Source of the DNA: Mobula hypostoma
Taxonomy: Eukaryota
DNA: 64,000 nt
Assembly (NCBI RefSeq): GCF_963921235.1
Contig: NC_086097.1
Coordinates: 57,352,001-57,416,000, forward strand
Reading direction: 5' to 3'
Shown here: positions 29,776-52,767 of the stretch, piece by piece
Layout: every line of letters starts with the position of its first letter
Numbering within the stretch: the first letter of the stretch is position 1
The notes under the pieces: model-generated
What the model was told of the DNA's origin: nothing
Seen by the model: the letters and a program-made list of their open reading frames with translations, nothing else
Databases searched by the model: none
Program-made: the position numbers and the translations under genes

Positions 29776-29921
29776 ACACAAAATGCTGGAGGAACTCAGC
29801 AGGCCAGGCAGCATCTATGGAAAAAAGTACAGTTGATGTTTTGGGCTGAAACCTGTTGAGTTCCTCCAGCATTTTGTGTGTGTTGCTTGGATTTCTAGTA
29901 TCTGCAGATTGACTCTTGTTT
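29776..29921. mobile_element. 146-bp hairpin mini-element built from PLE termini
   Basis: Perfect 14-bp TSD atagaaagtatcag (29762-29775, 29922-29935); 28-bp inverted arms 29776-29803 / 29852-29879 with 1 mismatch. Confidence 0.85.
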
Positions 29922-31194
29922 ATAGAAAGTATCAGTTATGCTAAGTCAATATCTTATTGAGAATTGTGCTATTACTAAGTTCCTTTTTTTTTTGCAACTT
30001 ATAGCTCTAAAACTGTTATCCTACGTTCTTATGTATGTTTACTGAAATCAGTAACATTCATTGCAAATATGGAATCTCTGTAGTTTTCATATTGTTTCAA
30101 ATGTAGCATGCTTTGGTGCAATTATTTTACATTGCATTGAAAGAGAGAATAGTTGCTTCATCTCAGACGGAATTCACTTTAGCAAGTGGATACAAGTTTT
30201 AGTTCTATGTACTTAAATTGCTGAAGTCTATTGTAGCTTCCAGTGCAAAAGTTTGAATTTAAGGCAAATAATTGCTTTAAAGTTTGTTGGAGATTTATTT
30301 GTCCACAGAGATAAATACCAAAGTCTCATTGGATCACCGTCAGCTAACAGATTAGGAAGTCACTTCAAGCAAAAGCCAAGGAAGGATTGAGTCGTCTTGA
30401 ATTTGAATAACTCAGTGGCAGCGATATCACCTTCAGTGCATGCCAGGATTGCTTGATGTTTCCCGGCTTAGTCTGCTATTACCAACAATAATGAACTCCA
30501 GAAGATGTAAGAAAATTGCTCTAAAGCAAAATAGAATTTCAGATGTTTGTTAAATTCAGAAAGAACAGCTTGAATATTTTAATGCACACATGGAATGCAA
30601 AGTCCTGACATTAGGCCCAGATGATGCAAATGTTCAAGCAACAATCCATCATCGATATCTGTATATTGATTTGCCATTAGCAAGCTAATACACATGCGCA
30701 AATAAAACCAGAAAATGCTAGGGATAATCAACAGTTTTGGGCTGTATTTGTCAAGAGAACACAATTACTTTTCAGGTACCTGCTGTATAAGCCCAGTATG
30801 TTCTGCTTTTATTTAAGATTTCTATCATTTATAATTCTGGACTTGTCCAAAGGAAGTTAAGATTGCCTCCTTCATGTCAATTCTAATGACTACATACAAA
30901 CATCTTTACCAGTTTTATTGCCCAGTGACAACACATGCACACTGAGTAATTTCTTCAATAAAAACAGTATAAATAAGCCAATTCTAAAATCTGCAGACAA
31001 GTCATTGGAAACTCCATGTTGTCAATATCGTCCACATCAGAAAGCGGAAAAGGAAATGTGATTATGTACGATTGTGAAATATACTTAACGTGCCAATGAG
31101 CAGAGGGTGACAACCTTTTGTGTGCAGTTTAACTTCCTTTGTGCGCTAGTAGCAAAAGGTGTGTGTGCGTACACCATACACCTTAGGAGGTACA

Positions 31195-44974: not shown

Positions 44975-45803
44975 TAGTGGATTCCAGTTAATTGGGACAC
45001 ATCGGTACCAGTACACTTTGGCTCAATTAAGCGGCTGCCTCAATTAGCTGGTTTCGTGTAAATAGTTAAACAGGTATGTAAAAGATTAATTACTGTTTAA
45101 CTGAGTAACAAACTATGCATTTAAATGAAATACAGAACAAATTAGAACACTATCAATACTACTGGAGTACTATAAAACTGTACATTAGTTCCTCAAACAT
45201 GAGGAAATCTGCAGATGCTGGAATTTCATTCATTGATAGAGGAATTCAGCATACGCTGTCATGTTCTTTTGATTAACAAAGTCAGTGCAGACATCTGATG
45301 TAGATAATGGACTGCCTTCATGGAATGCTATTGACAGTTTTATCCTCCAAATTTTCATCTTCATTGTAACATTCAAGATGATTGTCGATACCTTCAGATT
45401 TTTTGTAGTTCCTAACTTGCTGAAGTAATAAAATCATTTCATTTTCACTCCCAGCTGTTTCTGGCATCTCCAAACCTGAATGCTTGAAATCACAGTGAAC
45501 AAAATAATTCTCAATTGTCAGTTTAAAAAAATCTCTGGTTTTTGAACACAAAAACATGCATTCGTTATTACTTAAAAACTCTTCACTCTAAGCATGGTGT
45601 GGTGTCCAACGGCCACACAAGTGCACAAGTCTGATGCTAGTTAGAAACTGTTCAGCAACAGTCATCTGTTCCAATTAAGTGACATAGTGTTGCAAAAAGA
45701 AGGGCATCCCAGCTGTTTTCTTGATTAGTTTTTGTTCTATAAGAGTTGTCCCAAATAGAGACTGTGCTGATTAACCAATGGCCCAATTAACCGGAATCCA
45801 CTG
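44975..45803. mobile_element. Non-autonomous TcMar/Tigger-like element (same family as 10074-10893)
   Basis: TIRs agtggattccagttaattgg / ccaattaaccggaatccactg|ta. Confidence 0.8.
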
Positions 45804-48672: not shown

Positions 48673-50158
48673 TCAGTGAGAGAAGTGACAGCGATGGGAT
48701 GAGGCAATCCTACTGATGTCGGGCCTGTATTCTGTTGTGGCAATCCTGAGACACTGGCCAAGATGTGCATTGGAGAGTCTGTTTCGGTCCTGGTTCTTGA
48801 TAGAGTTCATTGAAGAAAACGATGACTCACATATGTACGTGGAGGGGAACAGTATGAGTAGGAGCATTGCAATAGCTCTCGTGTTTTTGAATTGAGCTTG
48901 GGGAACCACGTTGATCCAAAAGTCACTCACCCCAATGTCGTTGCATTGTGCTTTGAGCAAATCAGATGTTCCCATTTCCAAGACCTCCAACTGAAGAGTT
49001 GCCTCATCTGTGGAAGGCACCAGCCTTTTGGCCTCTACAGTCCACTGACCGTCAGCCGAAACAGAGAACGGCTGTCTCAGGAAGAGGAGGATGTCACCTG
49101 AGAGTTTAGGGGAGCTTTCAAATCGTTCCCTGAAGTTTTCTGCCAGGCTCGTCATGAAATCCTTCATCACTGGATCCTCCCACATTTCGTTCTTCTCGCA
49201 ATGCTCCCACAGACGTGGAAAGTGCAACTTTCTCCTGTGAATGTCTCTCTCCAAAAGGTTCAGCTTTGACTGGAAAGCGTCAATCGTGTCCGCAACAGTG
49301 TGGTTGTTGCCTTGTAATTGCAGATTAAGTTGATTTAGATGGGACATGATGTCACACAAAAAAAGAACATGTGCCATCACCTTGTTGTCACTTAAAAACC
49401 TCTTAAATCCTTGGGCTTTTTGGCTCTGCAGACTGGATAAAAATGACACAACCTCATTGCACAGGTCGCACACCCTGTCCAACACAAGGCCTTTGCTCAG
49501 CCAGCGAACATCATTATGAAGCAAAAGATCTTTGTGTTCCGCTGACATTTCCTCCAGCAATGCTCTGAAAAGGCAATGTTGCAGACTAGAACTCTCACGA
49601 ACGAAATTTACCAGTCTCGTTACAGTATCCATTGCCTCTTTCATTTCCCCACACAGTTTAGTGCACAGCACTGATTTGTGAATAATGCAATGAAATGCCA
49701 AGAGTGCTGGTAAACCTGCCTACCAAGCTCTTGTGTTTTACCACCATCAACGGAGCCCCATCGGTGACAATGGACACAATTTTGCTCACATCTAAGCCAT
49801 TCTTCCCAACGAACTGCATCAATTCGTTAAAAATTATTTCCCCAGTTATATGCCTAGGTAGAGGAAGCAAACAAAGTAGCTCTTCCTGGAAGGTCTTCCC
49901 ATCAAAAAATCTTGTGAACACAGATAGCTCTTCCATATCAGTTCGGTCACAGGGCGAGTAAATGGCTAGTGATATGGCTTCTGCTTTCTCTAAATCAGTG
50001 AGTAGATTGGAAAAACACTCCTCCGCTAAAACTTCTACTCCTCTTGTTGCCGTAGCTGACAATGGCGCCGTCTGTAATAGCTCCACAACAGTGTCCTTGG
50101 TTTCCTCATCATGACTTAAAACTTCGCCAACCATATCAATTGCACACGTTTTAATCAA
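48673..50158 (-). pseudogene. hAT transposase pseudogene (frameshifted, N-terminal BED region missing)
   Basis: Two overlapping frames. The first catalytic Asp motif appears as LAIYSPCD rather than LALDESTD; the 342-aa C-terminal ORF is still open. Confidence 0.85.
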
Positions 50159-50348
50159 CTTGGCATCGCACGCTCTATGGGGGCGTAGGTCTAGTGGGCG
50201 GTGTGGGATGAGGTTAAAGTAAATTAGAGCAGCGCACGCTTTACTTACATGTTATGACAGGTGCATTCACGTAAGTGCCAATGGGTCGGCGCAGTCCAGA
50301 CATTTGGTTCTCACGGTCAGGACCTGGCCCGCGGTCCACCTATTGGGC

Positions 50349-50458
50349 AACACACATCAAAGTTGCTGGTGAACGCAGCAGGCCAGACAGCATCTCTAGG
50401 AGGAGGTACAGTCGATGTTTCGGGCCGAGACCCTTCGTCAGGACTAACTGAAGGAAGA
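50349..50458 (-). mobile_element. 110-bp PLE family-1 terminus insertion
   Basis: 15-bp TSD gtccacctattgggc (50334-50348) / gtccgcctattgggc (50459-50473). Confidence 0.88.
50410..50445 (-). ncRNA. Minimal hammerhead ribozyme motif (AUC variant)
   Basis: Minus strand AGUC-CUGACGA-AGGGUCUCGGCCC-GAAAC-AUC-GACU. Confidence 0.8.
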
Positions 50459-52060: not shown

Positions 52061-52272
52061 GTATGGTGGATACTGGTTAACTGGGACACCTCGGGACCAA
52101 CACATTTTGGCCCAATTAAGCGGCCACCCCAATTAGCCAAAGTTTCATCGAAATAATTAAAAATGGTATTTAAAAAAAAGCAACCATTTAACTGAATAAC
52201 AAATTACGTATTTAAATGAAATACAGAACAAATTAGGACACTACCAGTACTACTACAGTACTATAGAACTGT

Positions 52273-52767
52273 AAACACGAGGAAATCTGCAGATGCTGGA
52301 ATTTCAAGCAACGCACATAAAAGTTGCTGGTGAACGCAGCAGACCAGGCAGCATCTCTAGGAAGAGGTACAGTCGACGTTTCGGGCCGAGGCCCTTCATC
52401 AGGACTAACTAAAAGAAGAGATAGTAAGAGATTTGAAAGGGGGAGGGGGAGATCCAAAATGAGAAGAGAAGGTAGGAGGGGGAGGGATGGAGCCAAGAGC
52501 TGGACAGTTGATTGGCAAAAAGGATATGAGAGGATCATGGGAAAGGAGGCCTAGGGAGAAAGATTTTTCTCCCTCTGTCCCTCTCACTATACCCCTTGCC
52601 CATCCTCTGTTTTTTCTCCCCCCTTCCCCTTTTCTTCCTCTTTAGGCCTCCTTTCCCATGATCCTCTCATATCCCTCTTGACTCCATTCCTCCCCCTCCT
52701 GTCTTCTCCTATCATTTTGGATCTCCCCTTCCCCCTCCCACTTTCAAATCTCTTACTAGCTCTTCTT
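52273..52767. mobile_element. Penelope-like element (family 1), second fold-back insertion
   Basis: Minus arm 52273-52560 includes the complete terminus and tail; plus arm about 52563-52767 is the same UTR in reverse orientation. Confidence 0.85.
52371..52406 (-). ncRNA. Minimal type I hammerhead ribozyme, all core nucleotides intact
   Basis: Minus strand AGUC-CUGAUGA-A-GGGC-CUCG-GCCC-GAAAC-GUC^GACU; stem I AGUC/GACU, Watson-Crick stem II, palindromic ACGU in place of stem III. Confidence 0.88.

What the first reader, a model, noticed from the sequence alone, without database searches (positions are those of the whole stretch)
52371..52406. Intact minimal hammerhead ribozyme in a Penelope-like element terminus
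Seen: the minus strand has CUGAUGA and GAAA boxes, a GUC triplet (predicted cut between 52375 and 52374), a 4-5 bp stem I, a GC-rich stem II preceded by an extra A, and the palindrome ACGU where stem III should be. Established: Penelope-like elements carry minimal type I hammerheads in their terminal repeats, and these need dimerisation through the palindrome to cleave well. Inference: this is the wild-type ribozyme of a PLE family abundant in this genome, and I am not aware of it having been tested biochemically in cartilaginous fish.
Basis: partly seen in the sequence, partly recalled or inferred. Interest (0 to 1): 0.8.

Follow-up and report, generated by a model that had tools for sequence, protein, structure and literature searches.

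The report
Penelope retrotransposon hammerhead in a ray
The 36 bases are a complete minimal hammerhead ribozyme motif in a broken, likely dead end-piece of a very abundant Penelope-like jumping gene, a known kind of element, and it is predicted to cut itself poorly or not at all on its own.

Summary
The minus strand 52406-52371 holds a complete minimal type I hammerhead (predicted cut 52375/52374), the only full descriptor hit in the window. It lies in the 3' pseudo-LTR of a 5'-truncated, partly inverted copy (52273-52767) of a Penelope-like element (PLE). Full-length relatives carry an RT/GIY-YIG frame between two such hammerheads 3.5 kb apart. The genome holds 6,700 exact intact 34-mers and roughly 3x10^5 related motifs. 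This is the PLE hammerhead described by Cervera and De la Pena (2014). The copy is not quite wild type: it differs from the family majority at two positions, has no matched partner nearby, and its sisters decay neutrally without covariation. The side result is more interesting. Copies begin very often at the ribozyme's 5' edge (16 of 32 mapped ends in 16 nt), and only about 1% begin at the cut site. That is about twice the best controls and partly explained by microhomology. So the RNA that gets copied is mostly uncut and likely starts at stem I. The scan reported this family and the 5'-edge pile-up many times before on other DNA of this genome. Ordinary; new member of a known kind.

The parts
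52371..52406 (-). Minimal type I hammerhead motif: stem I (4 bp plus a U.G pair at 52407/52370), CUGAUGA, extra A, 4-bp stem II, GAAA, ACGU palindrome in place of stem III; predicted cut between 52375 and 52374
52273..52563 (-). 3' arm of the PLE copy: pseudo-LTR from -195 to +102 relative to the cut site; 92-94% identical to the best genomic sister copies, 85% to the open-frame copy L124
52273..52307 (-). About 35-nt optional PLE tail between the two preferred 3' ends (about +67 and +102)
   Evidence: 3' ends of 57 sampled copies: 29 at +51 to +76, 27 at +95 to +110, 1 at +182; tail concept from PMC11167929 and PMC8557442
52564..52767 (+). Inverted second arm of the same insertion (element positions -259 to -40), joined head to head; it lacks its own hammerhead and tail. 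The arms are 89-91% complementary
52066..52272 (+). Piece of an unrelated dispersed repeat into which the PLE inserted. Its continuation is missing on the other side and no target-site duplication is seen, so a later deletion is likely (inference)
50415..50441 (-). Nearest same-strand sister hammerhead core, about 1.96 kb downstream; its palindrome reads ACAU (G16.2 lost), so it would be a mismatched dimer partner

Best explanation
This is a complete minimal hammerhead motif carried as cargo in the pseudo-LTR of a 5'-truncated, likely dead copy of a Neptune-type Penelope-like retrotransposon, and as a lone motif it is predicted to cleave weakly or not at all. Shown: the motif, the element, the family size, and two motifs 3.5 kb apart around the RT/GIY-YIG frame in full-length copies. 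Inferred mechanism: in the parent element's RNA the monomer folds into a closed rod in which G5-G8 pair with C15.2-C17. Cleavage after GUC would need two motifs paired through ACGU, or help from the element's protein as shown for an anole PLE. Reverse transcription likely starts about 67 or 102 nt behind the cut site and usually copies uncut RNA; short copies likely run off an RNA end at the first base of stem I. After insertion each copy decays neutrally, and this one is intact by chance.
For: Family: 6,700 exact 34-mers, reversed control 0. 138 motifs within 11 mismatches in 150 evenly spaced 10-kb stretches, about 3.2x10^5 extrapolated; 0 hits in a shuffle of the first 70 stretches. [quoted passage not shown] Neutral decay: in the older family B the catalytic G12 is A in 27 of 66 copies, and the loop CpG G is A in 22 of 66. 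Conservation in parent lineages: majority bases of the 36-mer are the same in families A and B except N7 and 11.1, while the flanks differ. Monomer fold: closed rod -14.9 kcal/mol, open-core fold -12.7, probability 0.013. Template ends: 16 of 32 mapped 5' ends fall in -26 to -41 (p = 3e-18 against uniform); genome-wide junction counts give about 141 per 1000 at -32, 13 at the cut site and 3-7 at six controls. Literature: minimal PLE hammerheads show no monomer and low dimer activity (PMC4209133); the anole PLE hammerhead cuts only with protein, and uncut RNA is the main template (PMC11167929).
Against: No cleavage assay was possible. No compensatory covariation was found among 121 copies, so the fold rests on complementarity and on the match to the known motif. 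The core is somewhat less changed than the stems at non-CpG sites (A: 6 of 495 against 14 of 715; B: 39 of 528 against 108 of 858); the scan's mismatch limit, base composition and mixed subfamilies may explain this, but it was not excluded. The -32 rate is inflated because the purine prefix matches purine-rich inverted arms. The edge pile-up could come from a hairpin barrier rather than an RNA start. Clade assignment is by motif only.
Confidence: 0.85

Rival explanations
1. The ribozyme cuts a minority of the element's RNAs in the germ line, and the copies that begin exactly at the predicted scissile bond are the fossil record of those cut templates.
For: 545 junctions begin at +1, against 182 (+2), 141 (+4), 252 (-3), 154 (+22) and the GA-starting controls 195 (+20) and 182 (-8); normalised 13.3 against 3.2-6.6 per 1000. 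The -1 pattern gave 261 but overlaps the +1 set. Of 20 cut-site loci that I picked to avoid the obvious microhomology triplets, 5 are plain truncations against unrelated flank and 3 share a junction of one arm ending at about -30 with the other starting at +1.
Against: 34 of the first 100 listed cut-site hits have prefixes expected from GAC microhomology with the motif's own stems, and about 13 look like small indels (my count). The palindrome GTCGAC spans the site and favours fold-back. Of the 20 picked loci, 2 were local mutations and 3 had 3-5-nt microhomology. None of 53 sampled copies ended at +1. Only six control positions. In the anole, no RNA reads end at the cut site (PMC11167929).
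Confidence: 0.25
2. The 5'-edge pile-up is caused by a hairpin just upstream of and overlapping the core, which stops the reverse transcriptase or folds the cDNA back, and not by an RNA start.
For: With upstream context the young copy folds an alternative hairpin over -46 to -18 and stem I probability drops to 0.13-0.14. Several fold-back junctions sit at this hairpin. 13 of 20 picked -32 loci are head-to-head inversions.
Against: 4 of those 20 loci are plain short copies with 10-14-bp target-site duplications that start at -32 after a few extra bases, and several others carry the same short added bases, as expected from run-off at a physical end. The finding's own copy does not favour that hairpin.
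Confidence: 0.3
3. This particular copy has been kept intact by selection as a host regulatory ribozyme.
For: It has a full core, a G10.1-C11.1 pair and a strengthened stem II; only 7 of 55 family-A copies pass that test.
Against: 7 of 55 still means thousands of such copies; 6,700 exact matches exist. The two arms of the insertion have drifted 9-11% apart, in line with ordinary decay. No matched partner lies nearby.
Confidence: 0.03
4. It belongs to a non-LTR retrozyme, a non-coding tandem unit that makes circular RNA.
For: The same type I motif class; retrozymes derive from PLE pseudo-LTRs and were found in the one chondrichthyan examined (bioRxiv 10.64898/2026.07.22.740005).
Against: No tandem unit here: one motif, one inverted arm. 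Sister copies run straight into GIY-YIG and RT coding sequence.
Confidence: 0.03

Closest known systems
Minimal hammerheads (min-HHR) of metazoan PLE pseudo-LTRs (Cervera and De la Pena 2014, PMC4209133; Xena, Poseidon and Neptune elements of fishes)
   Same: Type I topology, 4-5-bp helix I, unpaired base between positions 9 and 10.1, palindromic 15.2-16.2, no helix III, present in both pseudo-LTRs, mostly found as single motifs in truncated copies.
   Different: Helix II is only 4 bp (7-8 bp in the Schistosoma families). Copy number is far higher (about 3x10^5 estimated, against about 4,000 in coelacanth and 9,000 in Xenopus; methods differ). The host is a cartilaginous fish, not named in the parts and supplements I could read. 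The youngest subfamily has G10.1.U11.1.
Poseidon element PAc of Anolis carolinensis (Frangieh et al. 2024, PMC11167929)
   Same: Hammerhead at the pseudo-LTR/ORF boundary, two preferred 3' ends about 35 nt apart (the tail), copies made mainly from uncut RNA.
   Different: Here the protein has the Zn-finger linker of Neptune/Nematis, and the first Met of the long frame lies about 140 nt behind the cut site rather than inside the ribozyme. Activity was not tested.
Neptune-clade EN+ PLEs (Craig et al. 2021, PMC8557442)
   Same: [quoted passage not shown]
   Different: No tree was built, so Nematis is excluded only by published distribution. No microsatellite targeting was examined.

Membership tests
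Minimal type I hammerhead of PLEs | CUGANGA and GAAA boxes with NUH triplet | tested here: met
Minimal type I hammerhead of PLEs | Helix I of 4-5 bp closing the motif; helix II with G10.1-C11.1 and an extra base before it | tested here: met
   (stem pair probabilities 0.92-1.0)
Minimal type I hammerhead of PLEs | No helix III; palindromic 15.1-16.1 | tested here: met
   ACGU at 52379-52376
Minimal type I hammerhead of PLEs | Located in the pseudo-LTRs of a PLE | tested here: met
Minimal type I hammerhead of PLEs | Compensatory covariation in stems | tested here: inconclusive
   None among 121 copies; the stems are near-invariant between subfamilies and copies decay neutrally. Other species were not aligned.
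Minimal type I hammerhead of PLEs | Site-specific self-cleavage as dimer or with protein help | not testable with these tools
   needs an in vitro assay
Rfam hammerhead families | Score above gathering threshold | tested here: not met
EN+ Penelope-like element | Single ORF with RT and C-terminal GIY-YIG between direct pseudo-LTRs | tested here: met
   In sister copies L121-L129; GIY-YIG E = 0.0002 and 0.0017, both just under Pfam's cut-off; homologues with PF00078 and PF01541. The window copy itself has no ORF.
EN+ Penelope-like element | 5' truncation, inverted neighbour copy, 30-40-bp tail | tested here: met
Neptune clade | CX2-5CxxC linker between RT and EN | tested here: met
   CX4CXXC in L121 and L123; definition from PMC8557442; shared with Nematis
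Neptune clade | RT phylogeny | not tested
   no clade reference set on hand
Non-LTR retrozyme | Tandem non-coding units each with a hammerhead | tested here: not met

The most novel reading that the evidence does not exclude
The ends of this family's roughly 10^5 genomic copies record both ends of the RNA template. A sharp start at the first base of stem I would place the ribozyme at the very 5' end of the transcript, and a smaller peak at the scissile bond would be fossil evidence that a minimal PLE hammerhead cuts in vivo in about 1% of copied RNAs.
Probability: 0.25. Interest if true: 0.6.

Novelty: new member of a known kind. Interest (0 to 1): 0.22.

Why it matters
The motif itself adds a host lineage to a class described in 2014 and is one of thousands of intact copies. 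What PLE hammerheads do in vivo is still open (PMC8557442; PMC11167929). Because this family is so large and includes open-frame copies, its insertion ends allow a position-level test of whether cut RNA is ever copied and where the transcript starts. That value belongs to the family, not to this locus.

Tried and rejected
Rfam at two thresholds: no hammerhead hit; the miRNA and snoRNA hits below gathering score come from the inverted arms. Covariation among copies: none. RNA evidence: no RNA holder listed; the four runs laid are contigs of guessed type and show no start or end, so they say nothing on expression. Splicing as the cause of the 5'-edge pile-up (a pyrimidine tract and AG lie just upstream; Drosophila Penelope has an intron ending at helix I, PMC4209133): no shared upstream exon in the sampled truncated copies or the 20 picked loci, and no donor-like site for the five prefixes tried; not excluded for rare copies. 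Target-site duplication for this insertion: none seen. Lunse et al. on dimer cleavage: not held, only its citation was seen, so I cannot say which species it tested. One supplementary file of PMC4209133 was not searchable, and bioRxiv supplements are closed, so cartilaginous-fish entries there cannot be excluded. 'Not in print' rests. A sequence look-up in earlier findings returned nothing.

Full report
Observation. The minus strand 52406-52371 reads stem I 5' strand, CUGAUGA, an extra A, a 4-bp G-C stem II with a 4-nt loop, GAAA, the ACGU palindrome, C17 and the stem I 3' strand. The predicted cut lies between 52375 and 52374. A descriptor scan of both strands gave this hit and one weak chance hit. 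A looser core pattern gave 5 hits against 0.92 expected; the other four are sister copies with G8, G12 or G16.2 changed. Rfam does not detect the motif.

Context. The motif lies 102 nt from the 3' end of a 291-nt repeat arm (52273-52563, minus strand), joined head to head to an inverted arm (52564-52767) that covers element positions -259 to -40 and has no hammerhead. The left flank is a piece of another dispersed repeat whose continuation is missing on the right, and no target-site duplication is seen, so I infer a later deletion. The 40 best-scored sister copies are 92-94% identical. Many run upstream into RT-thumb, Zn-linker and GIY-YIG coding sequence.

Parent element. A protein search listed copies with open frames up to 1043 aa. 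Of ten that I fetched, four (L121, L122, L124, L129) show same-strand hammerheads about 3.5 kb apart around the frame; the unit is 3,501 nt from cut to cut in L124. [quoted passage not shown] By the definitions in Craig et al. (PMC8557442, passages) this is Neptune or Nematis. Li et al. found only Neptune and Poseidon in vertebrates (bioRxiv 10.64898/2026.07.22.740005, parts 1-3 of 5), so Neptune is likely. The closest named proteins come from rays (77-94% identical) and sharks (68-71%), which fits a ray host.

Family size and decay. The genome has 6,700 exact matches to an intact 34-mer. In 150 evenly spaced 10-kb stretches there are 138 motifs within 11 mismatches: 55 of a younger family A, 66 of an older family B and 17 unassigned. 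A shuffle of the first 70 stretches gave none. 34 of 55 A copies and 8 of 66 B copies keep core, stems and palindrome; 7 and 4 also keep G10.1-C11.1. In B, G12 has decayed in 27 of 66 copies and the loop CpG G in 22 of 66, so catalytic bases are not protected after insertion. Non-CpG core sites are somewhat less changed than stem sites (A 6 of 495 against 14 of 715; B 39 of 528 against 108 of 858), which I cannot fully separate from ascertainment. No stem pair shows a recurrent double change. The majority 36-mer is the same in A and B except N7 and 11.1 while the flanks differ, which suggests selection in the parent lineages (inference).

Is it the wild type? Not quite. This copy has N7=U (6 of 55) and 10.4=C (1 of 55). 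The recently active form has U11.1: 36 of 55 A copies, and 15 of 16 motifs listed in L121-L129. G10.1-C11.1 is called highly conserved by Cervera and De la Pena (PMC4209133, parts 1-2 of 4 and two supplements).

How it likely works. The monomer's best fold pairs G5-G8 with C15.2-C17 into a closed rod; the open-core fold has probability 0.013. The ACGU duplex alone is weak (-1.7 kcal/mol), and the best two-strand fold is not the hammerhead dimer. Published minimal PLE motifs show no monomer and low dimer activity, and 1 of 9 Xenopus retrozyme dimers cleaved. The anole PLE motif cuts only with the element's protein, and uncut RNA is the main template (PMC11167929, parts 1-2 of 4). The nearest same-strand partner here, 1.96 kb away, has a broken palindrome. 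I therefore expect little or no cleavage from this locus.

What the copies say about the RNA. I anchored 61 family-A copies on sequence behind the ribozyme (57 from the sample, 4 from the window). Their 3' ends fall at two sites, about +67 and +102 (29 and 27 of 57), the known PLE tail. None ends at the cut site. Genome-wide patterns of three non-matching bases plus an anchor gave 1346 at -32, 182 at -8, 252 at -3, 545 at +1, 182 at +2, 141 at +4, 195 at +20 and 154 at +22. Normalised by prefix probability and by anchor counts extrapolated from the sample, that is 141, 6.6, 6.0, 13.3, 4.4, 3.5, 6.1 and 3.2 per 1000. The -32 figure is inflated by purine-rich inverted arms. The -1 pattern (261) overlaps the +1 set and was not normalised.

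Reading of the two peaks. Of 20 loci picked by prefix class at -32, 13 are head-to-head inversions, 4 are short copies with 10-14-bp target-site duplications, and 3 are unclear; several carry a few added bases before stem I. This fits run-off at an RNA end, and Drosophila Penelope is transcribed from an internal promoter (PMC2377424, passages). A competing hairpin in the young subfamily is the rival. The cut-site excess is about twofold over the best controls. 34 of its first 100 listed hits have prefixes expected from microhomology with the motif's own stems and about 13 look like indels (my count). Of 20 loci picked to avoid those prefixes, 5 are plain truncations, 13 inversions (3 with 3-5-nt microhomology) and 2 local mutations. 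I rate in vivo cleavage footprints at 0.25.

Comparison and verdict. It works like, and is a member of, the minimal PLE hammerheads; every sequence feature tested is met and cleavage is untested. It is not a retrozyme unit. Reviews were seen as passages only (PMC6155905; PMC6765202). I found no paper on cartilaginous-fish PLE hammerheads or on the 5'-edge pile-up; the Lunse et al. paper and some supplements could not be read. Earlier scan notes describe the same family and the same pile-up many times; my counts were made before I saw them. Interest 0.22.

Noticed in passing
L121-L129 (e.g. L122:6949 and 3435, L124:4289 and 7790): The youngest, long-ORF subfamily carries a G10.1.U11.1 wobble in stem II (15 of 16 motifs listed), and its upstream sequence can fold a hairpin that hides the core; starting the RNA at -32 restores the stems.
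   Followed up: partly
window 45195-45228: A lone 34-bp PLE tail sits inside another copy of the same dispersed repeat that flanks the finding, about 13 bases from the equivalent insertion point.
   Followed up: partly
L261-L268: Copies that start at -32 often carry the same two to four added bases before stem I, whether the neighbour is a target-site duplication or an inverted arm; this may be a short template jump at the RNA end.
   Followed up: partly
L241-L243: Three independent loci share the same head-to-head junction: one arm ends at about -30, then one extra base, then the other arm starts exactly at the predicted cut site.
   Followed up: partly
L121:6663-3532 (-): A 1043-aa open frame in which the YIDD region is replaced by an out-of-frame stretch, apparently two compensating frameshifts; L123 has the motif intact.
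   Followed up: no
window 29776-29925: Short head-to-head fold-back of the older family B, turning within the sequence behind the ribozyme.
   Followed up: no
window 48673-50251 (-): Frames of 348 and 197 aa that look like hAT-type transposase remnants (label recalled, not searched).
   Followed up: no
L011:203-526 (-): Frame resembling an immunoglobulin light-chain constant domain close to a sister PLE copy (label recalled, not searched).
   Followed up: no
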